A stretch of 64,000 nucleotides of DNA, taken from Polyangiaceae bacterium (GTDB lineage: Bacteria; Myxococcota_A; Polyangia; Polyangiales; Polyangiaceae). The stretch is taken from contig JAPSGB010000008.1 in NCBI GenBank assembly GCA_035063585.1, positions 1-64,000 of the forward strand, in the 5' to 3' direction. Position 1 is the stretch's first letter; each line of letters starts with the position of its first letter. A model generated the notes under the pieces. It was not told where the DNA came from. It did not search any database and was given only the letters and a program-made list of their open reading frames with translations. Below are positions 42,473 through 54,881 of the stretch, one piece after another. A program made the translations under genes and the position numbers.

Positions 42473-42774
42473 CCGCGCGACCTCGCCCGCGCGGCGGCCC
42501 ACCTGCGGCCCGGCGGACCCTCCGTCACTGCTTCGAGCTCCCCGGACACGCAGCGCAACGCATACCGCAAATCTCGCGGCCGCCAAGGCGCGCCCTGCGA
42601 CTAGTCAGCGTTCTTGTCCGGACGAGCCGCCGCGAGCGCCGGGCCTCGCGACTCCGCACGCGGCGTGCCAATGCCCGAGGGCGGCTCTCGGGGGGAGCGG
42701 GGCGGCGCGAGGGCGGCCTTCAGGGGGGCGAGGCGGCGCGAGGGCGGGCCGGTGCGGCCTCGCCTTCGGCCCGC

Positions 42775-43134
42775 CCTCGCGATGCTCCGGCGCGGCTCCC
42801 GTCCGGGCGGGGCCGAACGGCGGGCTCTCGAAGCCGCCGCGTCTCGCCTCGCGATGCTCCGGCGCGGGTCCCGTCCGAGCGGGTCGATGACCTACCAGAT
42901 GGTAAGGGCTTGCGCGCTGCAGACGTGCTCTACGGTCGCGTCGAGCACGTCCGGGGTCGATGACTTACCAGATGGTAAGGGCTTGCGCGGGTGCGCGAGT
43001 TCCCGACGCCCATGGGCGACGCCCTCGCGCTCGACCGGCCCGGAATGACCTCGTCGAGCGGCCCGCTGGCTCGTAGCGCGTGCCGCGCGCGTCGTCTGGC
43101 GCTCGACCGGCCCGGAGCAGCCTCGTCGAGCGGC
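42775..43134. repeat. Three successive pairs of 36-37-bp imperfect direct repeats with 72-73-bp period
   Basis: A at 42775/42847, B at 42881/42954, C at 43027/43099. Confidence 0.85.
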
Positions 43135-43261
43135 TCCGGCGCGCCGAGCGCGACGGCCTGCTCTCGGGGTCGTCGGCGCGCCCCGTCACGCTCGTCCGAG
43201 CCCGCTTGCGGAGCGGTCTCGGAAAAGTCCCGGCCAGGGGTCGATTCGGGACCGAGCCCGC

Positions 43262-43292
43262 TTGACGGTCGCGGGGAGGCATGTGCTACGCT
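43262..43292 (+). promoter_or_regulatory. Possible sigma70 promoter
   Basis: TTGACG, 19-bp spacer, extended -10 TGcTACGCT. Confidence 0.35.
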
Positions 43293-43430
43293 GCGCCCGT
43301 GTTCGACCCGGAGCGTGTGATCCAGCGCGGCGTCCCGGCTCGCCGGCTTGCTCCGCTCGACGCCTCGGAGCTTACGGGAGCATAGAGCGCACCCGGCGTT
43401 CATCTCGGCCCACTGCGCTCGGATCTTATT

Positions 43431-43449
43431 GAAAATGCAAATCAGTATC
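43431..43449 (+). promoter_or_regulatory. Fur box
   Basis: GAAAATGCAAATCAGTATC matches GATAATGATAATCATTATC at 15/19; conspicuous AT island heading an iron-related operon. Confidence 0.8.
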
Positions 43450-45090
43450 ACTTTCAGTGGGCGCTCCGAAGGGGGCGAGCTTGGTGGTGGAGGGCCGGCC
43501 TCGGCGAGCGCTCACCCCGCGGGGAGCGCGGCGGCTCCTGCCAAGCGTGAGCGAAACCTCGCGCGAGGAGCTCGCCGCCTCCGCGGCCTCGCTGCGAGCG
43601 TACTGCTCGCGGTCGGGCTCGGGAGCTCGTCCACCGCGCTCGCGGATGAACCGGCCGGCGCAGGCGCGGCTCCCATCGAGGAGCCGCCCCCGCCCACCGA
43701 GCCGAGCGATCGCGCGCCTGAAGTCGCCGATGATGCGACGGCGCCCGCCGCCGAGGTACCCGTCGTGGCCGCGGGGCACGCCGAGGTGCCCGCCGCGCCG
43801 CCGGCCGCGCCGGACCGAACAGGCCCCTCCGCGGTCCCCGTAGTGAAGGGACGTGACGAGCCGAAGCACGAGGCGTCGCGTTCGCCGTTCGAGCTCGAGC
43901 TCCACGGCTACGGCGATCTCCAGTTTGCCTTCCACGACTACGGCGCGAATCAGAACCGTCCGGGAGGCTCCCAGAGCGACCGCCGGCTCGTCTTCGACAC
44001 CACCCGCTTCGTGTTCGAGCTCGAAGGCCGGATGCCCTACGATCTGGAGTTCGAGGCGGAGGTCGAGTTCGAGCACGGCGGGACGGGCGTCGCCCAGGAG
44101 CTCGACTACGAGGAGTTCGGGGAATTCGAGCAGGAGGTCGAGAAGGGGGGCGAGGTCATCCTCGAAGAGTTCTATCTGAAGAAGAAGTTCGCCAAGCACT
44201 TCTCGGTCGCGGCCGGCCGGTTCTACGTCGCGGTGGGGCTCTTGTCGGACTTCAACCATCCGACCGACTACCTCGCGGCGACTCGCTCGGAGGCGGAGAC
44301 GACGGTCATCCCGGCGGTCTGGAACGAGATGGGGCTAGCGTTCAAGGCCAAGTTCGACTGGCTCCAGGCGACCGCCCAGGTGGTGAACGGGCTCGACTCC
44401 ACGGGGTTCAGCTCGCAGAGCTGGATCGCGACCGGGCACCAGCGCCGCTTCGAGTTCGTGCGCGCGAGCGATCTGGCGTTCGTGGGTCGCGTCGATCTCC
44501 TCCCGACGAGAGACGTCATCGTAGGGGCATCGGGCTATTACGGAGGCACGTCGCGCAACCGTCCGAAGGCCGATCTCGTCCAGGAATGCACGGGCGGCGC
44601 GGAGGATGTGGTCGCGCCGTGCGGCTATGTCGACGCGCCGGTCTTGATCCTCGACGCGCACACGCACCTCCGCCTGGGCCCGGTCCGCGCGAGCGCCCTC
44701 GCGCTCTGGGGACACCTCGCGAACGCCGGGGATGTCTCGAGCCGGAATGAACGACTCTCGAACGCGCTCAACGTCCTGCGGACGCCGGTCGCCGACGAGG
44801 CGCTCGCGATGTGGGCGGAGGTCGGGCTCGACGTGGCGCCGTGGCTGTCGCTCGAGCCCGCGCATCGGCTCGAGCCGTTCGTGCGGCTCGATCATTACGA
44901 CACGATGTTCCACGTGCGCGAGGGCCTGTTCGACAACCCTCGGTTCGAGCGCACGGTGTTCACCGGTGGCGTCGGCTACACGCTGCTCGACGCCATGGTC
45001 TTGAAGCTCGAAGCCAGCCGCCGGCACTTCGGCTCGTCGGCTCTCAACCCCGAAGACACCGTCCGGCTGTCGGCGGCCGTCGTCTACTGA
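43435..45090 (+). CDS. Outer-membrane porin-like protein of imelysin-associated iron operons
   Basis: Signal peptide ending TALA-DEP, acidic EVEFEHGG...EEFGEFEQEVEKGGEV loop, beta-strand pattern, C-terminal Tyr; start uncertain. Confidence 0.72.
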   Translation: MQISITFSGRSEGGELGGGGPASASAHPAGSAAAPAKRERNLARGARRLRGLAASVLLAVGLGSSSTALADEPAGAGAAPIEEPPPPTEPSDRAPEVADDATAPAAEVPVVAAGHAEVPAAPPAAPDRTGPSAVPVVKGRDEPKHEASRSPFELELHGYGDLQFAFHDYGANQNRPGGSQSDRRLVFDTTRFVFELEGRMPYDLEFEAEVEFEHGGTGVAQELDYEEFGEFEQEVEKGGEVILEEFYLKKKFAKHFSVAAGRFYVAVGLLSDFNHPTDYLAATRSEAETTVIPAVWNEMGLAFKAKFDWLQATAQVVNGLDSTGFSSQSWIATGHQRRFEFVRASDLAFVGRVDLLPTRDVIVGASGYYGGTSRNRPKADLVQECTGGAEDVVAPCGYVDAPVLILDAHTHLRLGPVRASALALWGHLANAGDVSSRNERLSNALNVLRTPVADEALAMWAEVGLDVAPWLSLEPAHRLEPFVRLDHYDTMFHVREGLFDNPRFERTVFTGGVGYTLLDAMVLKLEASRRHFGSSALNPEDTVRLSAAVVY

Positions 45091-45109
45091 GTCACAACGA
45101 GAGAACGTC

Positions 45110-46195
45110 ATGAAAATCATCCAGTCCTTGATGTGGTCCGTGGCTTTCGTAGGCACCGTCGGGTGCGGGTCGGACGGAGGCGGCGGCAGCGGCCCCACGT
45201 CGGGTTTCGACGACCAAGCGCTCGTCGTCGACTTCGCCGATCAGGTCGTGGTCCCCACCTACACGTTGCTCGAGCAGCGCATCGGCTCACTCGAGACCGC
45301 GGTCGACGCCCTCGCCACGAACCCGACGGCCGAGACCTTCAAGGCCGCACAGGACGCATGGATCGCGGCGCGGCAGCCCTGGGAGCAGAGCGAGGGGTTC
45401 CTCTTCGGGCCGGTGGACGCGTATGGCTACGACCCCGCGATGGATTCGTGGCCCGTCAACACGACCGACCTCGATGCGGTCCTCGCGTCGGGCTCCGCGT
45501 TCACTCCAGAGTACGTCGGAAACCTCCAGGAGACGCAGAAGGGGTTTCACACCATCGAGTATCTCCTCTTCGGCGTGGGGCGGAAGAAGACCGTCGCCGA
45601 TCTCACTCCGCGCGAGCTGTCGTATGTGTCGGCCATCGCCGCCGAGCTCACAGAGATCGCGACCGCGCTCGAATCGTCCTGGACTGACGGCGTCGACGGC
45701 CGGCCGCCGTATCGCGATATCTTCGCCAACGCCGGACAGCCCGGCAACACGTCTTACCCGTCACGCCTCGCGGCCGTTCAGGAGATCCTCGACGGGATCA
45801 TCGGCATCTGCGATGAGGTCGCCAACGGGAAGATCGCCGGTCCCTACGACGCTCACGATCCGACGCTCGTGGAGAGCCAGTTCGCGTTCAACTCGATCAC
45901 CGATTTTCAGGACAATCTGCGGAGCGTCGAGAACGTCTACTCGGGCGGCGTCCCTGCCGCCGGGACCAGCGGCAAGGGCCTCTCGGCCTACGTGGCCGAG
46001 CGTGACTCGGCGCTCGACGCGCGCGTGAAGAGCGAGCTCGCCGCGGCGATCGAGGCGATCGGGGCCATCCCGCCGCCGTTCCGCGACGCGATCGTGACGC
46101 CGAGCTCGTACAGCGCGATCGAGGCGGCCCAGGCGGCGGTCCGCAAGGTCCATGACACGCTGCAGCGAGACGTTCGGCCGCTCGTGCAAGAGTGA
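45110..46195 (+). CDS. Imelysin (peptidase M75/IrpA-like) lipoprotein
   Basis: Lipobox TVGC; WEQSEGFLFGP, DSWP, GFHTIEYLLF (HxxE) motifs. Confidence 0.9.
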   Translation: MKIIQSLMWSVAFVGTVGCGSDGGGGSGPTSGFDDQALVVDFADQVVVPTYTLLEQRIGSLETAVDALATNPTAETFKAAQDAWIAARQPWEQSEGFLFGPVDAYGYDPAMDSWPVNTTDLDAVLASGSAFTPEYVGNLQETQKGFHTIEYLLFGVGRKKTVADLTPRELSYVSAIAAELTEIATALESSWTDGVDGRPPYRDIFANAGQPGNTSYPSRLAAVQEILDGIIGICDEVANGKIAGPYDAHDPTLVESQFAFNSITDFQDNLRSVENVYSGGVPAAGTSGKGLSAYVAERDSALDARVKSELAAAIEAIGAIPPPFRDAIVTPSSYSAIEAAQAAVRKVHDTLQRDVRPLVQE

Positions 46196-46304
46196 CGACA
46201 TGCCCAACCTAGCTCGCAACGGCGCGCCCGCGTGGGGGCGCGCCCCGGGGACACCGTGCGGTTCCGGGGAGGGGGAGCGCGTGCCGCCGGGCGAGCAGCG
46301 GGGA

Positions 46305-47696
46305 ATGAGCCACCCCGGGAGAGCTTCGGGGCAGGTCCCGAGGCGAGGCGCCCTGCGTGTGCAGGCGTGGGTCCTCTTCGCCGGCTTGTCGGTGGCCGCT
46401 GGCTGCGGGGCCGCTGGCGACGAGCAGCCGTCAGGGGACGCGCCGAGGGCCGGGGGTGACACCACCGTCATCGACCGTTCGTCGAACGCGTTCACGTTTC
46501 CCGCGCCGAACCTGGATGCGGAGGACCTCGCGTCGCACCTCGACGGAGACGTCGCCTTCGAGGCGACCTTCGTCACCGCCCCGGCGCCCCGCAACCCCGG
46601 CCTTGGCCCTCTGTTCAACAACAACGGCTGCGCGAAATGCCACGTTCGAGACGGGCGCGGTCTACCCGAGGCCGGACGAGGGCCGCACGGCAGCCCGCTG
46701 CTCGTGCGGGTGAGCGCAAGCGCGGGCGAGCCGGCGGTCCCGGGCGGTGCGGTCGCGGTGGAGGGCCTCGGCACGCAGCTCCAGGACCACGCCGTCTACG
46801 GGGCCACGCCCGAGGTGACCGTGGCCATTCGCTGGGTCGAGCAACCGGGGGAGTACGGGGACGGCGAGCCGTTCTCGCTCCGGCGCCCGGTCTTCGAGAT
46901 CACGCTCGCCAGCGGCGAGCCGCTCCCGCGAGACGTCATGACCTCGGCGCGCATTCCTCCGCCCGTGTTCGGGCTCGGGCTCCTCGAGGCGGTCGCGGAG
47001 GACGACATCGTGGCGCGCGCGGATCCGGACGACGCCGACGGCGACGGCATCTCCGGTCGCCCGAACTACGTCTGGGACGAGGTCCGAGGCGCGCCGAGCC
47101 TGGGGCGATTTGGCTGGAAGGCCAACGTGCCGAGCCTCTTGCAGCAAGCCGCCGCCGCGTACTCCGGCGACATGGGCGTGAGCTCGCCGATGTTTCCCGA
47201 GGCGGACGGGACCTCGGAGGTCGACGAGCGCACGCTCGGGGCGGCGGCGTTCTACACGGCGACGCTCGCCGTACCGGGGCGGTACGGCTGGAGCGAGCCC
47301 GAGGTGAAGCGCGGCGAGGCGCTCTTTCGCGAGGCGCGCTGCGCGACGTGCCACGTCGAAGAGCTCCGCACCGGGGAGCAGGCGACGGGCGCGCTCCGCG
47401 GGCAGACCTTCCACCCCTATACCGATCTCCTCTTGCACAACATGGGCTTCGACCTGGCGGATGGGAGGCCCGATTTCATGGCTTCGGGCACGGAGTGGCG
47501 CACCGCGCCGCTCTGGGGGCTCGGTCTCACGCATACCGTGCTCCCGTACTCGAGCTTCTTGCACGACGGCCGCGCGCGCTCGATCGAAGAGGCCATCCTC
47601 TGGCATGGAGGTGAAGCCGAGGCGTCGAAGGAGGCGTTTCGAGTCATGGCTGCGTCCGACCGCGCAGCCCTCATGGAGTTCTTGCGCTCGCTCTGA
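46305..47696 (+). CDS. Di-heme oxidoreductase (DHOR/DUF1111) lipoprotein
   Basis: GLGPLFN..CAKCH, FGLGLLEA, GRFGWKA, CATCH, YTDLLLH, WRTAPLWG, LHDGRA..EAILWHGGEA; start uncertain (46200/46305/46359). Confidence 0.9.
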   Translation: MSHPGRASGQVPRRGALRVQAWVLFAGLSVAAGCGAAGDEQPSGDAPRAGGDTTVIDRSSNAFTFPAPNLDAEDLASHLDGDVAFEATFVTAPAPRNPGLGPLFNNNGCAKCHVRDGRGLPEAGRGPHGSPLLVRVSASAGEPAVPGGAVAVEGLGTQLQDHAVYGATPEVTVAIRWVEQPGEYGDGEPFSLRRPVFEITLASGEPLPRDVMTSARIPPPVFGLGLLEAVAEDDIVARADPDDADGDGISGRPNYVWDEVRGAPSLGRFGWKANVPSLLQQAAAAYSGDMGVSSPMFPEADGTSEVDERTLGAAAFYTATLAVPGRYGWSEPEVKRGEALFREARCATCHVEELRTGEQATGALRGQTFHPYTDLLLHNMGFDLADGRPDFMASGTEWRTAPLWGLGLTHTVLPYSSFLHDGRARSIEEAILWHGGEAEASKEAFRVMAASDRAALMEFLRSL

Positions 47697-47732
47697 CGGG
47701 ATGATGGCGCGAGCCGGCGACGTGACCTGATC

Positions 47733-50669
47733 ATGCAACGACCCACGGTGCTCTGTCCGGCGGCGCCCACGGCGCGTCGACTCGTCGTCGCGCTGGGCGC
47801 GCTCGCGCTCGCGGGCGCGTGCGGCGGAGAGCCGACCGCCCGCGAGACGTTCGACGCGAACGTGCTCCCCGTGTTTCAGCGCTCCTGCGCCGCGGCGGCC
47901 TGTCATGGCGTCGCGCCGGGGGCGGAGGCCCGCGGCGAGCAGATCGACTGGAATCAATTCTACCTGCGCCTGGATGCGCGGGGGATGCTGTCCGATCCGG
48001 ACCAGGCCTATGCGACGGCCAAGCGGGTCATCGACACGACCGAGGACCCCGAGTTCTCGCAGCTCCTCCGAAAGCCGCTCGGCGTGAGGCTCGGCGGGCT
48101 GCCTCACTACGGCGGGGAGAACTTCTCGGGGACCGACGATCCGGCGTATCGGGCCGTGCGGGACTGGATCTCCCTCGAGGCCGGAGGCGGTGAGGATCCG
48201 CGGCCCCTCGACGAGCTCGAGCAGCTCTTCGCCGACACCGTGCAGCCCGTGCTCGTGGAGGCGACCTGCATGACCTCGCGGTGTCACGGCCCGACCGCCG
48301 GCGCCACGCCGTACCACCTCGACGTGGGGTACCGAGGTCGATTCCCGGCAGCGGCCACCCGGCACAACTACGAGGAGACGCTCCGGATGGTGACGCTCGA
48401 TGGCGATCCCCTCTTGTCGCGCGTCATTCGAAAGGCTCAGCCCCTCGGGCCGGGGATCGTACACAAGGGCACGAATTTCGATTTCTTCGCCGGTGATCCG
48501 GGCGGGGGGGTCTCGGCCATCACCAACTGGATCTGCGCCGAGCGTCGGGCGCGCGCCGGAGAGGACTGCGCGAGCCCCGAAGCGCCGCCGATCTCGGGTT
48601 TCGTCTTCGTGCGCGGCCCGATCTCGCCGCACCCTGCGTTCGAGCTCGATTCCTTCACGCCGGGGAGTGATCTCTTCCTCGCGACCGTGGATACCCCCTC
48701 CGTCGTGCCTTCGTCGACGGAGAACCTCACCGAGCGGCTGCACCCGGGCGCCCCTGCCGACGTCCGCGATCCCGCGGTGTCTCGGGACGGTACCCGGGTC
48801 GTCTTCTCCATGCGGGTGAGCGCCGAAGACGGTCACCACCTCTGGATGCTCGACCTCACGTCACGAGCGGCGCGACAGCTCACCTCCGGCGCAGGCACCG
48901 ATCGTGACCCCACCTTCGGACCCGACGGGAGCGTCTGGTTCGTCTCGACACGCGCGGGCGTGGTGGCCGATCGAGGCGCGCTGCTCGACGCCGACATCTA
49001 CTCGCTCGAGCCGGAGACGGGAGCGCTCCGCCGCTGGACGTACACGCCCCACGTCGAGCGAAAGCCGGTGTTCTTCGACATCGGCGACGAGGCCGGCGGC
49101 GAGGTCGCCTTCAGCGCGCTGCGCGACGCGATCCCCGACCAGGCGCGCGCACACGTCTTCCGCTTCCCGCCGAGTCAGAGCACGGAGTATCACCAGCACT
49201 TCGGCATCACGCCCGTCGAGACGTTCTTCTACGACATGCGCGAGCTCCCCGACGGGCGCTACGTGAGCGTGGTCGGAGACCTGCCGGCCGTGTGGGAAGC
49301 GGGAGGGCTCGGGATCATCGAGCGGAACTTCGGTCCGGAGCTCAACCGGCGGGCGGCTGAGTCGCGCCCCGCGCTCGAGCTCTACGAGCCGCCGCTGGTT
49401 CGGCTCCAGGGCGACGGCGCCTACCGCGATCCCGTGCCGCTCCCCGACGGCAGGCTGCTCGTCGCGCATCAGCCGGGCCCGTTCGATCCGAGTGACCCGA
49501 AGGCGACCTTCACCCCGCGGCTCGAGCTGCTGACGCTCGTGGAGCGCCCCGACAGCAGCGGCCCGGCGGTGGCAGCGACCACCGTGCTCATCGAGGAGCA
49601 GGGGGTCGCGCTCACCGATCCGGAGCCCATCTCGGTTCGGGCGCCGGTCCGCCCCGACGGCGCGCCGCTCCCCCCGAACGACGCGGAGACTGCGCTCCTC
49701 ACCCACCAGGGTCTACCGATGATCGACGCGCTGCTCTCGAACCTGCCGCCTTCGGGCAAGAAGCAGCCGCGGACCGACATCGCGTACGTGCGCCTCGTCG
49801 AGCACCTCCCCATGACGCGGGCCGAGCGAACCGCAGTGCCGCCGGGGGAGACGCTCTTCGGCGCCGAGGACGCGACGACGACGGCGCTCGGGTCCCACGG
49901 GCCCGCGCGCATCCTCGCGGAGCTACCCGTCGAGGCCGACGGGAGCTTCCAGGCGCGCGTGCCCGTCGACGTGCCCTTCCGAGTACAGCCGCTCGACGCC
50001 TCGCGCATGGCGATCGGCGTGATGCATAATCGCTGGTTTTACACGCTACCCGGTCAGGTCCTCACGCAGGGGTTGTCGGTCGCGTCGGGGATGGAGCGCT
50101 ACGGCTCGAGCTGCGCGGCCTGTCACGGTGATCCGAACGGCGTGGGCGGTCGGCCGCCGGCGCTGGAGGAGCCCGACGCGATCACGGGCGCCTCCCTCTC
50201 GCTCAGCCGCTTCGAGGGCCAGAACCCGCGACGGCCCTTGGCTCCTCCTGTGCTCGGCGCGGCGACGCGCGTCGAGGTGGACTTCACGCGAGACGTACAG
50301 CCGATCCTCGATCGGCGCTGCGTCGGTTGTCACGCGGGCAGCGACGCCCCGGACGGCCTCGACCTCACCGGCACCCCCACCGCGCACTTCACCCAGTCTT
50401 ACGAGCACCTCCTCCGCGGGGGCGCCGGCTCCGGCGGCGGGCGCGCGTACGTCGACGATGGCGACGGTCGCGCTCGGAGCAGCTACCTCATCGAGCGGCT
50501 CATGGGCGTCGAGCTGGACGCGCCACGAGCGCTCCCCGCGGGTTCCTCGCGGCATCCGCTGGCCGGCGGCCGCTCGGGGGCGCTGACGGACGAGGAGCTG
50601 CTGGTCTTGATACGGTGGATCGATCTCGGCGCGACCTTCCGGGGGACCGGACGAGCGGTGACTCCATGA
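47733..50669 (+). CDS. Hydrazine-synthase-alpha-like multidomain lipoprotein (2 CX4CH cytochrome domains, PD40/TolB propeller, HZS-alpha middle-like domain, 2 CX2CH)
   Basis: LAGAC lipobox; CAAAACH, CMTSRCH; DPAVSRDG..VVFSMR, DPTFGPDG..FVSTR; RILAELPVEADGSF.ARVP...QPLD; CAACH; FTRDVQPILDRRCVGCH. Confidence 0.75.
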   Translation: MQRPTVLCPAAPTARRLVVALGALALAGACGGEPTARETFDANVLPVFQRSCAAAACHGVAPGAEARGEQIDWNQFYLRLDARGMLSDPDQAYATAKRVIDTTEDPEFSQLLRKPLGVRLGGLPHYGGENFSGTDDPAYRAVRDWISLEAGGGEDPRPLDELEQLFADTVQPVLVEATCMTSRCHGPTAGATPYHLDVGYRGRFPAAATRHNYEETLRMVTLDGDPLLSRVIRKAQPLGPGIVHKGTNFDFFAGDPGGGVSAITNWICAERRARAGEDCASPEAPPISGFVFVRGPISPHPAFELDSFTPGSDLFLATVDTPSVVPSSTENLTERLHPGAPADVRDPAVSRDGTRVVFSMRVSAEDGHHLWMLDLTSRAARQLTSGAGTDRDPTFGPDGSVWFVSTRAGVVADRGALLDADIYSLEPETGALRRWTYTPHVERKPVFFDIGDEAGGEVAFSALRDAIPDQARAHVFRFPPSQSTEYHQHFGITPVETFFYDMRELPDGRYVSVVGDLPAVWEAGGLGIIERNFGPELNRRAAESRPALELYEPPLVRLQGDGAYRDPVPLPDGRLLVAHQPGPFDPSDPKATFTPRLELLTLVERPDSSGPAVAATTVLIEEQGVALTDPEPISVRAPVRPDGAPLPPNDAETALLTHQGLPMIDALLSNLPPSGKKQPRTDIAYVRLVEHLPMTRAERTAVPPGETLFGAEDATTTALGSHGPARILAELPVEADGSFQARVPVDVPFRVQPLDASRMAIGVMHNRWFYTLPGQVLTQGLSVASGMERYGSSCAACHGDPNGVGGRPPALEEPDAITGASLSLSRFEGQNPRRPLAPPVLGAATRVEVDFTRDVQPILDRRCVGCHAGSDAPDGLDLTGTPTAHFTQSYEHLLRGGAGSGGGRAYVDDGDGRARSSYLIERLMGVELDAPRALPAGSSRHPLAGGRSGALTDEELLVLIRWIDLGATFRGTGRAVTP

Positions 50670-51127
50670 GGTGGACGATGGGGTTCATGCTCCTCATCGG
50701 CGCTGGACCGGCGGCGTGCGCCTGGCCGACTTCGGAGCCGTGGCCCAGCTTCGGGACGCTCGACGAGTTCGTCACGCAGGCGCAGCCGGTGCTGGCGGCG
50801 AGGTGTTCGAACCCGAGCTGCCACGGCAACCCCGACCGCCCGCTGTCGGTGTTCGCCGTTCATCGCTACCGGCTGAACGCAGCCGACACCTTCCTGGACG
50901 CTCCGCTCACGCGCGAGGAGCAAGAGCTGAACTTCGCTCGGGCGTCGGCCTTCTTGCTCGAGGTAGGAGACGCTTCGCACAGCCTGCTGCTCGCCAAGCC
51001 GCTCGCGGCCCGCGCGGGAGGCGCGGGGCACGACGCGGTCGAGGTGTTCGGCGATCGCGAGGACTACGACTACCGTCGCCTGCGCGGGTGGGTCGAGCAG
51101 GCGCTGGCCGCGCGGGAGGCTCCGTGA
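50666..51127 (+). CDS. Monoheme CX4CH cytochrome c lipoprotein
   Basis: ATG 50666 overlapping the upstream stop; PAAC lipobox; CSNPSCH; aligns by eye with the N-terminal domains of the upstream protein. Confidence 0.75.
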   Translation: MRWTMGFMLLIGAGPAACAWPTSEPWPSFGTLDEFVTQAQPVLAARCSNPSCHGNPDRPLSVFAVHRYRLNAADTFLDAPLTREEQELNFARASAFLLEVGDASHSLLLAKPLAARAGGAGHDAVEVFGDREDYDYRRLRGWVEQALAAREAP

Positions 51128-51342
51128 CGCGCCGGCTCCGCGTCGCGCTCGCTTCCACTTGCGCGCTGGTCTTCTGGGCCGGCTGCGCCCCGGTTCCCGC
51201 CTATCAGCGCGGGCGCCTGATGCAGCGGTCGATGCAGCCGAAGCCCCCGCTCGACGCGGCGTTCGACGCGCACGTGGAGGACCTGCGTGAGAGCGCCATC
51301 GGCGCCTCGGGCGGAGAGAGCGCGTCATGCGGGTGTCGTTGA
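51124..51342 (+). CDS. DUF4266 family small lipoprotein
   Basis: GTG 51124; WAGC, V..YQRGRL...M, H....RE...G, C-terminal CGC. Confidence 0.8.
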   Translation: MTRRLRVALASTCALVFWAGCAPVPAYQRGRLMQRSMQPKPPLDAAFDAHVEDLRESAIGASGGESASCGCR

Positions 51343-52418
51343 CCGCCCTGGCCCTCGGCGCCATCGGGACCGGGTGCGGGGCGACGGTGAGCCACCGCGC
51401 GAGCGCGCGCGTGCACGTCTACGATGATCCACGGATCACCGTCGTATCACCGACCGTAGAGGAGCAAGCTCAGATCGCCGATACGAAGGTGACCGCGCAC
51501 TACGGCGTCGACGCGGTGAGCGGCGCCACGCAGGCGCTGACGGTCGACGCGGTCTCGTCCGCCACCCGGTTCTCGGAGGTCAGGCAGGACGCCGGGCTCA
51601 GGGCGGCCCACGCATTCTCCGCGGAGACGGAGCTATCGGGAGGTTATAACCTCAGCCGGGAGCCGGATGACCTCGTGCATGTGCCGTCGCTCCGGCTCAC
51701 TCAGGAGCTCTTCGAGCGAATGGTCCGGGCGGCGGTGGGCTATCAGCTGGTCGTCGAGTCGATCGGTCGCACCGGAGATCCGCTCTTCCGCGAGCACGCG
51801 CTCGGGCATCGCGTCGATGTCGAGTGGACGCAGATCGCGACGCGCTCGCTCACCTTGACGGTGCTCGGCACGGGGACCGCGACCGAGTGCAGCGCCGGCA
51901 TCGGGTGCTTCGCCAACCCGTACCGCTACGTCGGGATCGCGCGCGGCGCCGCCCACATCGCCCTGCCCGAACGCCACCCGGACCAGCGCTTCACGGGCGC
52001 CGGCGCGCTCCGGCTATCGTGGGCGTTCGCCGGCTCGAGCGCCCTTCAGGCCGGCTCCCGGTGGGCCGTCGACAGCTGGAGCGTGGCCGCGTACACGGCC
52101 GACGCGGCGGTCGTGACCGAGCTCTTCGACGACCGCCTGCTCGCGCGGGCCGAGGCGCGCGCGACCCTGCAGAGTCGCGCGTCGTTCTACGACGAGCGCT
52201 ACCAGGGCTCCGGCGGCGTCCTGCCGGCGTACCGAACCGCGGACGCGGAGCTCTCCGGATTGCGGAACGCCCGAGCGCAGCTCTTCCTCGATTGGGCGTG
52301 GGGCCCCGTGCACATCGTCGGCCAGCTTGGCCGGATGTGGAACTACTACCCGGGGTTCCCCGCGTTGCCGACGCGGCACGCGTGGATCGCCGGGGGCGGG
52401 CTCGACGCCAACTTCTGA
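51327..52418 (+). CDS. DUF3570 family outer-membrane beta-barrel
   Basis: VDAVSGAT/VDAVSSAT, S.EPD, LPERHPDQR, DSWSV, TADAELS, C-terminal Phe; adjacent to DUF4266. Confidence 0.78.
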   Translation: MRVSLTALALGAIGTGCGATVSHRASARVHVYDDPRITVVSPTVEEQAQIADTKVTAHYGVDAVSGATQALTVDAVSSATRFSEVRQDAGLRAAHAFSAETELSGGYNLSREPDDLVHVPSLRLTQELFERMVRAAVGYQLVVESIGRTGDPLFREHALGHRVDVEWTQIATRSLTLTVLGTGTATECSAGIGCFANPYRYVGIARGAAHIALPERHPDQRFTGAGALRLSWAFAGSSALQAGSRWAVDSWSVAAYTADAAVVTELFDDRLLARAEARATLQSRASFYDERYQGSGGVLPAYRTADAELSGLRNARAQLFLDWAWGPVHIVGQLGRMWNYYPGFPALPTRHAWIAGGGLDANF

Positions 52419-52535
52419 GCGTCACGCCGCTGCCGGGCGAGCCGCGCGGGCCGTTCCTCGGGGGCGGTCGGAGCGGCGCGAGCGCGGAGCTCACGGGCTC
52501 CGCCGCGAGTTGCTCGCGCTAGACTCCCGGGCACC

Positions 52536-53219
52536 ATGCCTCGGCCACCCGGACCCTCCGAGCCTGCGCGCGGCTCCGCGCTCGATGCGGTCACCGTGGT
52601 CGCCCTCTCCGACACGCACATGCGACACCGCGAGCTGGTGGTCCCGCCGTGTGAGCTCCTCGTGCACGCGGGAGACTTCTCTCGGCGCGGCACGAGCGCG
52701 GAGACGCGCGAGTTCATCGCCTGGATGGCGAGCCAGCCCGCTCGCGAGAAGGTCCTCGTCGCCGGCAACCACGACCGCTTCGCCGAGCTCGAGCCGGAGC
52801 GGCTCCGCGAGCTCACCGTGCGCAGCGGGATACGCTACCTATTCGACGAGGAGGTGACGCTCCTCGGGCTCCGCATCTGGGGCTCGCCGGTCACTCCGGC
52901 CTTCCGCAGCATGGCCTTCAACCGCGAGCGCGGCGCGGCCATCCGCCGGCACTGGGACGCCATCCCCGCGGGGCTCGACCTCCTCGTCACGCACGGGCCG
53001 CCCCAGGGCATCGGCGATCGCGCCTTCTTCGGCGCGCATGTCGGCTGCGAAGCGCTCATGGACGCGGTGCGGCAGCGGCCGCCGCGCGCGCACGTCTTCG
53101 GTCACATCCACGAGGCGGCCGGTGAGTACCGCGACGCCGGACTCCCGACGCGCTTCCTCAACGTCGCCATCGCTCGCTGGCTCGGAGGTACTCGCCCGGC
53201 GGTGACCTTCACGCTGTGA
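52536..53219 (+). CDS. Metallophosphoesterase (MPPED-like)
   Basis: SDTH, HAGDF, GNHD, THGPP, FGHIHE. Confidence 0.9.
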   Translation: MPRPPGPSEPARGSALDAVTVVALSDTHMRHRELVVPPCELLVHAGDFSRRGTSAETREFIAWMASQPAREKVLVAGNHDRFAELEPERLRELTVRSGIRYLFDEEVTLLGLRIWGSPVTPAFRSMAFNRERGAAIRRHWDAIPAGLDLLVTHGPPQGIGDRAFFGAHVGCEALMDAVRQRPPRAHVFGHIHEAAGEYRDAGLPTRFLNVAIARWLGGTRPAVTFTL

Positions 53220-53257
53220 ACCGAGCCGGAGCGCTCGGCGGGAGGGGGAGGGGAGGT

Positions 53258-53309
53258 CGGTCCGGCGCGGAACCGCGCGGGGCGGGCCGCGCGGTTCCGC
53301 GCCGGACCG
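53258..53309. repeat. REP-like perfect hairpin (23-bp arms, 6-nt loop)
   Basis: cggtccggcgcggaaccgcgcgg-ggcggg-ccgcgcggttccgcgccggaccg. Confidence 0.88.
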
Positions 53310-53378
53310 GCAAACCCAAAAAAACCGGGGAGAACGCCCAGGAGCGTCGCCATTGTCGAAGCCGGTGCCCCGTGCTAA

Positions 53379-54881
<1,503 letters not shown>

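What the first reader, a model, noticed from the sequence alone, without database searches (positions are those of the whole stretch)
43431..52418. Fur-box-headed operon joining porin-imelysin-DHOR to an HzsA-like heme propeller, a CX4CH cytochrome, DUF4266 and DUF3570: candidate undescribed redox-coupled iron acquisition system
Seen: a 15/19 Fur box, then seven co-oriented genes, the last four overlapping (50666-50669, 51124-51127, 51327-51342). They encode two different barrels and five lipoproteins with 7 heme motifs. Established: imelysin plus DHOR plus porin is a recurrent iron-regulated module; DUF4266/DUF3570 usually occur with thioredoxin and ApbE genes. Inference: the two modules are fused around an HzsA-like enzyme into an outer-membrane machine that oxidises or reduces iron or an iron ligand before uptake, with no TonB-dependent receptor.
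Basis: partly seen in the sequence, partly recalled or inferred. Interest (0 to 1): 0.82.

Follow-up and report, generated by a model that had tools for sequence, protein, structure and literature searches.

The report
Iron-regulated haem-flavin envelope redox operon
A wastewater myxobacterium has one iron-controlled operon that joins a known iron-uptake gene pair to an unstudied cell-envelope electron-transfer module, giving a first testable clue to what that module does.

Summary
A 15/19 Fur box at 43431-43449 heads seven tightly packed + strand genes:
- a porin
- an imelysin
- a DHOR dihaem protein
- a 978-aa HzsA-like four-haem lipoprotein
- a small CX4CH lipoprotein
- DUF4266
- DUF3570

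The set is not unique to this genome. The same seven-gene order recurs in 6 other Myxococcota MAG loci, and 3 more loci carry rearranged forms. A Fur-like box sits directly upstream of the porin in 8 of 9 loci.

The last four genes form an older core. In 28 related loci this core sits beside a fused HzsB/HzsC-like gene instead, often with ApbE, and has no Fur box. On the HzsA-like tree the Fur-headed form is one nested clade.

The DUF3570 protein models as an outer-membrane barrel of about 18 strands. It carries two tandem ApbE-type flavinylation motifs. The HzsA-like protein has the HzsA fold but lacks its tyrosine haem ligand.

My best reading (about 0.5) is a Fur-repressed haem/flavin envelope redox system that changes the redox state of iron for uptake. 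No function was tested, and every relative is a MAG.

Notes from this scan had already recorded HzsA-like genes next to DUF4266/DUF3570 on other DNA (e1-6963131). They did not record this Fur-headed imelysin/DHOR/porin form.

The parts
43431..43455 (+). Fur box. The core 19-mer at 43431-43449 scores 15/19. A second overlapping hexamer register runs to 43455. The box overlaps the only start codon of g1 (ATG 43435).
   Evidence: Orthologous boxes lie upstream of g1 in 8 of 9 loci. A PWM built without this site ranks it 8th in the genome, behind sites at ferritin, feoAB and TonB-receptor operons.
43435..45090 (+). g1, outer-membrane porin (OprO/P-like barrel, roughly residues 150-551). It has a long Pro/Ala-rich N-terminal part.
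   Evidence: Pfam Porin_O_P E 0.0017, below the cut-off. Atlas porin clusters: TM 0.65/0.8. A paralogue lies at C9 beside FMN_bind and ApbE.
45110..46195 (+). g2, imelysin (Peptidase_M75/EfeO-like) lipoprotein with the GFHTIE motif.
   Evidence: Pfam E 2.7e-67. The GxHxxE motif is present in 10 of 10 orthologues.
46305..47696 (+). g3, DHOR (DUF1111) dihaem peroxidase-like lipoprotein. The ORF is open from 46152; the likely start is ATG 46305.
   Evidence: Pfam E 3.2e-104. Two CXXCH motifs. The profile hits a dihaem cytochrome c peroxidase, 3o5c, at E 2.6e-4.
47733..50669 (+). g4, HzsA-like lipoprotein. Two N-terminal CX4CH domains are followed by a beta-propeller, the HZS_alpha middle domain and two CXXCH haem sites.
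   Evidence: Pfam and NCBIfam. AF2 pLDDT 89.5. Foldseek top hit 5c2v_A, E 1.6e-34. The profile hits HzsA at E 4e-39. All four haem motifs are invariant in 45 sequences.
50666..51127 (+). g5, small lipoprotein with CX4CH and a conserved distal His. It is a paralogue of the first domain of g4 and has no Pfam family.
   Evidence: hhalign probability 99.6, E 1.1e-23, to g4 columns 12-142. Invariant residues are C18, C47, C52, H53 and H122. No significant Pfam hit in 37 members.
51124..51342 (+). g6, DUF4266 lipoprotein ending in CGC plus one residue.
   Evidence: Pfam E 1.5e-10. Invariant residues are C21, R29, M37, H50 and C69-G-C71 in 17 of 17 sequences.
51327..52418 (+). g7, DUF3570 outer-membrane beta-barrel.
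   Evidence: Pfam E 1.2e-12. AF2 pLDDT 91.1, all-beta with about 18 strands. Foldseek returns only outer-membrane barrels.
51510..51566 (+). Codons for g7 residues 62-80: two tandem ApbE-type flavinylation motifs, DAVSGAT and DAVSSAT. They lie at the end of strand 3 and in the following loop, which has low confidence.
   Evidence: D62, A67, D74 and A79 are invariant in 32 DUF3570 sequences. The motif and its flavinylation were shown for Chlorobium DUF3570 in Meheust 2021.

Best explanation
This is a Fur-repressed cell-envelope redox operon switched on by iron shortage. Two modules that exist separately in related genomes have been joined in it.

Module 1 is the Efe-like pair, with an added outer-membrane porin:
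- an imelysin, the iron-binding M75 lipoprotein
- DHOR, a dihaem peroxidase-type protein

Module 2 is an electron-transfer core:
- a four-haem lipoprotein with the hydrazine-synthase alpha fold
- a one-haem lipoprotein that is a copy of its first domain
- the CXC lipoprotein DUF4266
- DUF3570, an outer-membrane barrel that ApbE loads with covalent FMN (ApbE is encoded elsewhere in this genome)

Proposed working; all of these steps are inferred:
1. Electrons pass between the periplasmic haems and the flavin on or in the barrel, so that ferric iron at the cell surface is reduced.
2. Fe(II) enters through the porin.
3. DHOR and imelysin capture and re-oxidise it.
4. It is handed to an inner-membrane transporter encoded elsewhere (FTR1 and FeoAB genes are present).

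DHOR here takes the place that a fused HzsB/HzsC-like dihaem partner holds next to the same core in related genomes.

What is shown: the gene content, the recurrence of the set, the conserved Fur-type box, the folds and the motifs. What is not shown: the direction of electron flow, the substrate and any protein contacts.
For: Regulation
- The 15/19 Fur box is rare in this genome.
- Boxes at >=13/19 lie directly upstream of g1 in 8 of 9 loci that have g1. Only 6 other such sites occur in 696,718 nt of related loci, and none lies upstream of g4 in the 28 HzsBC-type loci.
- A PWM trained on the orthologous sites only marks these places in G000: a ferritin gene, feoAB, two TonB-receptor operons, and a porin-FMN_bind-ApbE operon.
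- The genome has a single Fur-family gene, and it scores best on Fur models.
- The closest relative has a fur gene and a TonB-dependent receptor gene directly upstream of its copy.

One functional unit
- The intergenic gaps are 19 nt and 36 nt, and there are three overlaps.
- No terminator-like site lies inside the operon.
- The seven-gene order recurs in L029, L030, L033, L037, L038 and L042.
- In L036 (g4-g3-g2-g5) and L039 (g1-g2-g4-g3) genes of the two modules are interleaved.
- g3 and g4 are adjacent in all 10 loci of this type.
- These g4 sequences form one clade (support 100) nested among HzsBC-type loci.

Flavin link
- g7 carries DAVSGAT and DAVSSAT.
- ApbE is adjacent in 14 related loci.
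- L037 has TlpA-like, DUF4266, DUF3570 and ApbE in order.
- G000 has two ApbE genes.
- DUF3570 flavinylation by ApbE was shown experimentally (Meheust 2021, passages read).

Folds.

Imelysin/DHOR as Fur-regulated iron genes: Xu 2011 (passages read) and Price 2016 (passage read).

Presence in RNA libraries: two sludge metatranscriptome runs from one study give zero-mismatch contigs on g1, g2, the g2/g3 junction, g4 and g7. Some bridge g1/g2.
Against: - No experiment of any kind exists, and every relative found is a MAG.
- The older and commoner partner of the core is HzsBC-like and has no Fur box. The core itself is therefore not intrinsically an iron system.
- Inducing seven haem sites under iron shortage is costly.
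- The operon holds no ApbE, thioredoxin-like gene, inner-membrane electron donor or iron permease.
- The second flavin motif is SSAT, not the published [S/T]GA[S/T].
- L032, L034 and L039 carry g4 without DUF4266/DUF3570 at the locus.
- L042 has no box at >=13/19.
- RNA-library contigs may derive from DNA and cannot show a single transcript. None bridges g3/g4.
- The side of the membrane on which the flavin loop lies is inferred from strand parity only.
Confidence: 0.5

Rival explanations
1. The HzsA-like protein, with DHOR standing in for an HzsC-like partner, is an enzyme that acts on a small oxidant or nitrogen species such as H2O2, NO or hydroxylamine. The flavin barrel and small cytochrome only feed it electrons. 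Iron control then reflects peroxide or NO chemistry linked to iron stress, not iron uptake.
For: - g4 has the whole HzsA fold and both HzsA haem sites.
- 28 related loci pair the same core with a fused HzsB/HzsC-like protein.
- DHOR is distantly related to dihaem peroxidases.
- Hemerythrin and NnrS genes lie next to some related loci.
- Published work proposes that HZS-like enzymes use alternative substrates (PMC10732223, passages read; PMC12758564, section 7 read).
Against: - The tyrosine haem ligand of HzsA (CSGCHYGSY) is not kept: g4 has CAACHGDPNG.
- No HzsBC-like gene was found in G000 with two queries.
- The partners gained in this clade are iron-uptake families under a Fur-type box that is shared with feoAB and TonB-receptor operons.
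Confidence: 0.2
2. Electrons flow inward. Fe(II) entering through the porin is oxidised by DHOR/imelysin. The electrons then pass through the HzsA-like and small cytochromes to the flavin/thiol module or the respiratory chain. This would be an Efe-like ferrous oxidation-uptake system that needs no peroxide.
For: - The Efe analogy for imelysin plus a haem peroxidase-type partner (Xu 2011; Price 2016).
- An FTR1-family gene is present in the genome.
- g3 and g4 are always adjacent.
Against: - Nothing in the sequence sets the direction of flow.
- An outer-membrane flavin barrel has no obvious role in inward flow.
- The runs that hold this DNA are wastewater and sludge metagenomes. Free Fe(II) may be scarce there (my inference).
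Confidence: 0.15
3. Two independent systems merely abut. g1-g3 is a Fur-regulated iron module. g4-g7 is a general envelope redox module, read through or separately transcribed, with no shared function.
For: - Both modules exist separately in relatives.
- No RNA contig bridges the g3/g4 junction, and one contig starts at 47728.
- HzsBC-type loci have no Fur box.
Against: - The g3-g4 gap is 36 nt, with no terminator-like site and no structure beyond shuffled controls.
- The join is conserved in 10 loci.
- Genes of the two modules are interleaved in L036 and L039.
- There is one derived clade on the g4 tree.
Confidence: 0.1

Closest known systems
Flavinylation-associated DUF3570 / DUF4266 / thioredoxin-like / ApbE clusters, often with DsbD (Meheust et al. 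2021, eLife, PMC8238504)
   Same: DUF4266 has the C-terminal CXC and directly precedes DUF3570, which carries ApbE-type motifs. Related loci keep ApbE, and L037 also keeps a TlpA-like gene.
   Different: The window's operon has no ApbE, thioredoxin-like or DsbD gene. An HzsA-like four-haem lipoprotein and a CX4CH lipoprotein precede the pair instead. The whole set is placed behind porin-imelysin-DHOR and a Fur box. The passages I read do not describe DUF3570 as an outer-membrane barrel. The paper's cluster tables were not held as text.
Fur-regulated imelysin / DUF1111 (DHOR) operons such as P. aeruginosa PA4370-PA4373 and V. cholerae VC1264-VC1266, and the EfeUOB system (Xu et al. 2011, PMC3143127; Price et al. 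2016 preprint)
   Same: An imelysin with GxHxxE next to a dihaem DHOR, both lipoproteins, under a Fur-type box.
   Different: There is only one imelysin, and no second GxxxxE imelysin, no DUF1513 and no EfeU in the operon. A porin and the four-gene haem/flavin core have been added. Relatives still carry the classic imelysin-DHOR-imelysin form separately.
Hydrazine synthase alpha subunit (HzsA, Kuenenia stuttgartiensis, PDB 5C2V chain A) and the HZS-like alpha + fused beta-gamma gene pairs outside anammox bacteria (PMC12758564; PMC10732223)
   Same: Propeller, middle domain and C-terminal haem domain, with both CXXCH sites. Related Myxococcota loci have an adjacent fused HzsB/HzsC-like gene.
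   Different: - About 270 extra N-terminal residues carry two CX4CH domains.
- The HzsA tyrosine ligand is absent.
- No beta-gamma homologue was found in this genome.
- The association with DUF3570/DUF4266/ApbE and with Fur is not mentioned in those papers. PMC12758564 has 0 occurrences of 'Myxococc' and is not among the 5 papers that hold DUF3570 or DUF4266.
Porin-cytochrome outer-membrane electron conduits (MtrCAB, PioAB, Cyc2). Named from recall, not tested.
   Same: An outer-membrane barrel is encoded beside periplasmic lipoprotein cytochromes, in an iron context.
   Different: The barrel would carry covalent flavin, not an inserted multihaem protein.

Membership tests
Hydrazine synthase alpha subunit (HzsA) | Overall fold: beta-propeller, middle domain and C-terminal haem domain | tested here: met
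   Foldseek 5c2v_A E 1.6e-34, TM 0.63 by target, about 829 columns. Profile hit at E 4e-39.
Hydrazine synthase alpha subunit (HzsA) | Two CXXCH haem sites at the homologous positions | tested here: met
   C794/C797/H798 and C863/C866/H867 are invariant in 45 sequences and align to the HzsA motifs.
Hydrazine synthase alpha subunit (HzsA) | Tyrosine four residues after the first CXXCH as the proximal haem ligand. That this Tyr is the ligand is recalled from Dietl 2015, which was not read here. | tested here: not met
   HzsA reads CSGCHYGSY. The g4 family reads CAGCHGxxxG, and the window reads CAACHGDPNG.
Hydrazine synthase alpha subunit (HzsA) | Beta and gamma partner subunits encoded with it | tested here: not met
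   tblastn with two HzsBC-like queries found nothing in G000, which is 93% complete. Such a partner is present in 28 related loci.
DUF3570/DUF4266 flavinylation system (Meheust 2021) | A DUF3570 protein with [S/T]GA[S/T] motifs | tested here: met
   PF12094 E 1.2e-12. SGAT is at residues 65-68. The second motif is SSAT at 77-80, so only one fits the published pattern strictly.
DUF3570/DUF4266 flavinylation system (Meheust 2021) | A small DUF4266 lipoprotein with a C-terminal CXC, next to DUF3570 | tested here: met
   PF14086 E 1.5e-10. All 17 of 17 sequences end in CGC plus one residue. It overlaps g7 by 16 nt.
DUF3570/DUF4266 flavinylation system (Meheust 2021) | ApbE and a thioredoxin-like gene in the cluster | tested here: not met
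   Neither is in the window's operon. Two ApbE genes lie elsewhere in G000. ApbE is adjacent in 14 related loci, and a TlpA-like gene is present in L037.
DUF3570/DUF4266 flavinylation system (Meheust 2021) | Covalent FMN actually attached | not testable with these tools
   Needs co-expression with ApbE and detection of the flavin.
Fur-regulated imelysin/DHOR iron module (PA4370-4373 type) | An imelysin with GxHxxE adjacent to a dihaem DUF1111/DHOR | tested here: met
   GFHTIE, CAKCH and CATCH.
Fur-regulated imelysin/DHOR iron module (PA4370-4373 type) | A Fur box at the operon head | tested here: met
   This is sequence evidence only; no binding was tested.
Fur-regulated imelysin/DHOR iron module (PA4370-4373 type) | A second (GxxxxE) imelysin and a DUF1513 propeller | tested here: not met
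   The Pfam scan of the seven products shows one imelysin and no DUF1513. Relatives do have imelysin-DHOR-imelysin.
EfeUOB | An FTR1-type permease EfeU in the operon | tested here: not met
   None is in the operon. One FTR1-family match lies elsewhere, at C4:132028.

The most novel reading that the evidence does not exclude
DUF3570 is a covalently flavinylated outer-membrane barrel that works as a flavin-based trans-outer-membrane electron conduit. It is fed by the CXC lipoprotein DUF4266 and by HzsA-like and CX4CH cytochromes. In this clade of Myxococcota the conduit has been taken over by the Fur regulon for reductive iron assimilation through a dedicated porin and an Efe-like DHOR/imelysin capture step. 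That would make it a haem-flavin counterpart of the MtrCAB-type porin-cytochrome conduits. It would also give the first physiological role for the widespread non-anammox HzsA-like family.
Probability: 0.2. Interest if true: 0.9.

Novelty: new variant of a known kind. Interest (0 to 1): 0.64.

Why it matters
Three families are all widespread and none has an established biochemical function:
- HzsA-like dihaem or multihaem lipoproteins outside anammox bacteria
- the ApbE-flavinylated DUF3570/DUF4266 pair
- imelysin/DHOR

Here all three sit in one conserved operon under one recognisable regulator. This gives the HzsA-like/DUF3570 envelope module its first regulatory clue, iron shortage. It also suggests that a DHOR dihaem protein can take the place of an HzsC-like partner.

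The clue leads to simple tests:
- flavinylation of an outer-membrane barrel
- haem attachment at CX4CH sites
- Fur binding
- iron-limited growth of mutants

If the flavin barrel really carries electrons across the outer membrane, it would be a new kind of extracellular electron-transfer device.

Tried and rejected
- Complex prediction (g6 with g7) was not available and nothing was folded. No protein contact was tested.
- The cluster tables of Meheust 2021 are not held as searchable text: 3 files, 5,406 characters, 0 hits for PF18582, HZS_alpha, PF09375 or PF06537. Whether that paper's tables already contain HzsA-like neighbours could not be checked.
- Promoter and terminator scan of 42600-53400: 0 promoter-like sites and 1 terminator-like site. 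That site is on the - strand at 53341-53325, outside the operon.
- RNA folds of the g3/g4 gap and of the region after g7 are no more stable than shuffles (z -1.13 and -0.04).
- Rfam on the whole window: 0 matches.
- Pfam on 37 g5-family members at E <= 1: nothing significant. The best was PccH in 3 of 37 at E 0.089.
- phmmer of DHOR against PDB sequences: 0 hits. The profile gave only weak peroxidase and cytochrome hits.
- RNA-library contigs left parts of the operon and the phosphoesterase gene uncovered. I draw nothing from the uncovered parts.
- L042 has only an AT-rich patch at the g1 start, about 10/19 by my hand count. I do not count it as a Fur box.
- Rejected: that g4 is a true hydrazine synthase. 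The Tyr ligand and the beta-gamma partners are missing.
- Rejected: that the long antisense ORFs (for example 46662-48839 on the - strand) are genes. These are high-GC antisense frames, and the + strand products have strong family matches.

Full report
THE OBSERVATION

The window is about 70% G+C. It is contig C8 of a 5.14 Mb, 79-contig genome that is 93% complete.

At 43431-43449 lies GAAAATGCAAATCAGTATC. It matches the E. coli Fur consensus (recalled from memory) at 15 of 19 positions. The whole genome has only three sites at >=15/19. Ten Mb of first-order Markov simulation gave none. At >=14/19 the genome has 20 hits against about 1 expected, and at >=13/19 it has 92 against about 13.

Seven co-oriented ORFs follow.
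- g1: weak Porin_O_P
- g2: imelysin, E 2.7e-67
- g3: DHOR, E 3.2e-104
- g4: 978 aa with PD40, HZS_alpha and cytochrome c hits, plus an NCBIfam hydrazine_alpha match over the C-terminus (E 1.4e-21)
- g5: 153 aa, no family
- g6: DUF4266
- g7: DUF3570

The junctions are exactly as reported. There is ATGA at 50666-50669, GTGA at 51124-51127, and a 16-nt overlap at 51327-51342. The g1/g2 gap is 19 nt and the g3/g4 gap is 36 nt.

The seven haem motifs are real. DHOR has CAKCH and CATCH, g4 has two CX4CH and two CXXCH, and g5 has one CX4CH.

One correction is needed. The only start codon in the g1 frame before the signal-like segment is the ATG at 43435, inside the Fur box.

RECURRENCE

A profile of six g4 orthologues found 54 loci in the species-representative genome collection. 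All are MAGs. All but the weakest hit (L082, labelled an alphaproteobacterium) are labelled Myxococcota or by older names for that group. I scored gene order in them by tblastn with the window's proteins and a few neighbours' proteins.

- The full order g1-g7 recurs in L029, L030, L033, L037, L038 and L042. L037 and L038 are nearly identical.
- Rearranged or partial forms:
  - L032: g3-g4-g5, then an inverted g3-g2-g1
  - L036: g4-g3-g2-g5, with DUF3570, DUF4266 and ApbE divergent from it
  - L039: g1-g2-g4-g3
- g3 and g4 are neighbours in all ten loci of this kind. In L036 and L039 genes of the two 'modules' are interleaved.
- Flanking genes differ from locus to locus.

A second and larger group, 28 of the 44 loci L029-L072, has g4-g5-(g6)-g7 followed by:
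- a conserved protein of about 175 aa with no family
- a protein of 830-1000 aa that matches hydrazine synthase beta (5c2v_B, E 8e-12) in its N-terminal propeller and hydrazine synthase gamma (5c2v_C, E 5.7e-4) in its C-terminal dihaem part

The second protein is therefore a fused HzsB/HzsC-like protein. ApbE is adjacent in 14 of the 44 loci.

I built a FastTree tree of 45 g4 rows. Rows left out:
- L029 (masked run)
- L035, L053 and L068 (truncated)
- L038 (near copy of L037)
- L047 (ORF call ran on)
- L074, L076 and L081 (redundant paralogues)
- L082 (weak hit)

On this tree, all loci of the porin/imelysin/DHOR kind, plus two with short context, form one clade with support 100. That clade is nested among HzsBC-type loci. 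This is a quick tree with SH-like support only.

The classic imelysin-DHOR-imelysin module also exists on its own in relatives. Six such loci fetched with longer flanks show no g1-type porin within about 5 kb, and two or three of them have Fur-like boxes.

The window's operon is therefore a derived join. An HzsBC-like partner and the 175-aa protein were replaced by porin-imelysin-DHOR.

REGULATION

Fur-like sites at >=13/19 lie directly upstream of g1, or over its start, in 8 of the 9 loci that have g1. L042 has none. Counting L037 and L038 once gives 7 of 8. Only six other such sites occur in the 696,718 nt scanned, and none lies upstream of g4 in HzsBC-type loci.

I built a weight matrix from the six orthologous sites, leaving the window's own site out. 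Its best sites in G000 are:
- upstream of a ferritin-like gene (C27)
- a TonB-receptor/DUF5122/imelysin operon (C37)
- an operon of a g1-like porin, an FMN_bind protein, an unknown protein and ApbE (C9)
- a second TonB receptor (C9)
- feoA-feoB (C30)
- two sites of unclear meaning
- then the window's site

G000 has one Fur-family gene, and it scores best on Fur models, though below the equivalog cut-offs. In the closest relative, G004, a Fur-family gene and a TonB-dependent receptor gene lie directly upstream of the operon.

Together this is good in-silico evidence that the box is this organism's iron box and that the operon belongs to that regulon. No binding or expression experiment exists.

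THE PROTEINS

g4
- It folds with pLDDT 89.5 and pTM 0.89.
- Its best structural match by far is HzsA (5c2v_A, E 1.6e-34). TolB propellers follow at E 1e-13.
- The profile aligns both HzsA haem motifs and, strongly, the C-terminal haem domain.
- HzsA reads CSGCHYGSY. The g4 family has Gly and no Tyr at that position (CAACHGDPNG in the window).
- All four haem motifs and His125, His244 and His487 are invariant in 45 sequences.

g5
- It is a lipoprotein copy of the first g4 domain (hhalign probability 99.6).
- It has an invariant lipobox Cys, CX4CH and His122.
- It has no Pfam family.

g6
- It keeps its lipobox Cys, Arg29, Met37, His50 and a terminal CGC in 17 of 17 sequences.

g7
- It folds with pLDDT 91.1 as an all-beta protein of about 18 strands.
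- It matches only outer-membrane barrels.
- Residues 62-80 read DAVSGAT....DAVSSAT, at the end of strand 3 and in the following low-confidence loop.
- Asp62, Ala67, Asp74 and Ala79 are invariant in 32 family members.
- The SGAT form is kept in the Fur-headed clade and its nearest relatives. Other relatives have S/T-A-A-S/T, and some of those still have ApbE adjacent.
- By strand parity the loop lies on the outer face or in the lumen. This is inference; I could not inspect the coordinates.

Meheust et al. 2021 (abstract and passages read) showed that a Chlorobium DUF3570 is flavinylated by ApbE at two [S/T]GA[S/T] motifs. They also showed that DUF3570, DUF4266, a thioredoxin-like protein and ApbE cluster together, often with DsbD. 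L037 has exactly that string (TlpA-like, DUF4266, DUF3570, ApbE) behind g5. G000 has two ApbE genes elsewhere and cytochrome c maturation genes.

EXPRESSION

The DNA stretch occurs in wastewater, sludge and bioreactor metagenomes from nine studies, some of which may be its source.

Two sludge metatranscriptome runs from one study give zero-mismatch contigs on:
- 43406-43635
- 44751-45124, which bridges g1/g2
- 45755-46249 and 46032-46321, which run past the g2 stop
- parts of g4
- g7

RNA libraries can contain DNA, contigs cannot show a single transcript, and none bridges g3/g4. I take this only as weak support that the operon is expressed in situ.

MECHANISM

Shown:
- a conserved seven-gene unit
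- a conserved Fur-type box
- two outer-membrane barrels
- five lipoproteins
- seven conserved haem-type motifs
- a conserved ApbE-type motif pair on one barrel

Inferred, in this order:
1. Under iron shortage the cell builds an envelope electron path between haems (g5, g4) and FMN on g7, with the CXC lipoprotein g6 as a possible go-between.
2. Ferric iron is reduced at the surface.
3. Fe(II) enters through g1.
4. DHOR and imelysin capture and re-oxidise it, as proposed for Efe-type systems (Xu 2011; Price 2016).
5. FTR1 or FeoAB, encoded elsewhere, complete uptake.

A second Fur-boxed operon in the same genome also pairs a g1-like porin with a flavinylation target and ApbE. This supports a porin-plus-flavoprotein logic.

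Several things argue against too much confidence:
- The core's older partner is HzsBC-like and has no Fur box.
- The electron donor and the direction of flow are unknown.
- Some clade members lack g6 and g7 at the locus.

The rivals are listed separately: an enzyme acting on peroxide or nitrogen oxides, inward electron flow from Fe(II), and mere adjacency.

COMPARISON AND NOVELTY

Each part is known as a family:
- Imelysin/DHOR iron operons are described in Xu 2011.
- DUF3570/DUF4266/ApbE clusters are described in Meheust 2021.
- HZS-like alpha plus fused beta-gamma pairs outside anammox bacteria are described in PMC12758564 (section 7 and passages read) and PMC10732223 (passages read).

None of these texts, as far as I read them, links HzsA-like proteins to DUF3570 or to Fur-controlled iron genes. 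A full-text search for DUF3570 or DUF4266 returned 5 papers. A search for HzsA-like terms returned 10. Subscription-only papers and the unreadable eLife tables remain a gap.

Earlier AI notes of this scan did record HzsA-like lipoproteins next to TlpA/DUF4266/DUF3570 in other genomes (e1-6963131, e1-761141). The core association is therefore not new to the scan. The Fur-headed porin/imelysin/DHOR form and the HzsBC-linked Myxococcota form were not in those notes.

I class it as a new variant of known kinds, with a moderately high interest score. It gives a regulatory handle on two large families of unknown function.

Noticed in passing
L040-L070 (28 related loci; for example L014:10634-18362 = G004:C71): Myxococcota MAGs carry an HzsA-like gene, a small CX4CH cytochrome, (DUF4266), DUF3570, a 175-aa protein of unknown family and a fused HzsB/HzsC-like gene, often followed by ApbE. 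This is an HZS-like alpha plus beta-gamma set tied to a flavinylated barrel. The HZS-evolution paper I read has 0 occurrences of 'Myxococc'.
   Followed up: partly
G000:C9:8588-16901 (L025): A second operon with a Fur-like box: TonB-dependent receptor, TonB, a paralogue of the g1 porin (26% identity), an FMN_bind protein, a 194-aa unknown protein and ApbE. Strong Fur-like sites lie at C9:12465 and C9:16523.
   Followed up: partly
G000:C37:37161-44874 (L026): One of the three best Fur-consensus sites in the genome (15/19). It heads a set of TonB-dependent receptor, DUF5122 propeller, a second imelysin, a fatty-acid-hydroxylase-family gene and one more gene.
   Followed up: partly
window:42673-43152: The 850-nt gap between the dnaG start and the Fur box holds several pairs of direct repeats spaced 72-73 nt apart (42775/42847, 42881/42954, 43024/43096) and GC-rich inverted repeats.
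   Followed up: no
window:52536-53219: A metallophosphoesterase gene lies 117 nt downstream of g7. Metallophosphoesterase genes also flank the related loci L032 (4428-5357) and L039 (4425-5567, directly upstream of the Fur-like box).
   Followed up: no
G000:C21:29729-32943 and G000:C72:4602-6929: Two more HzsA-like paralogues (1070 and 775 aa, 24-29% identical to g4). The C21 gene has a weak Fur-like site (PWM score 18.9) right at its start. Pairs of such paralogues recur in many relatives.
   Followed up: no
L037:11239-11652 and L038: In two nearly identical MAG records, a TlpA/redoxin-like gene sits between g5 and DUF4266, and ApbE follows DUF3570. This gives a nine-gene version of the operon.
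   Followed up: partly
window:53400-55046: The stretch 53609-54542 has far higher contig depth than its surroundings in both RNA runs and in the DNA run. This suggests a conserved, abundant gene shared with other organisms. The gene was not identified.
   Followed up: no
window:38348-42586: rpoD (740 aa) and dnaG (670 aa) lie on the - strand directly upstream of the intergenic region.
   Followed up: yes
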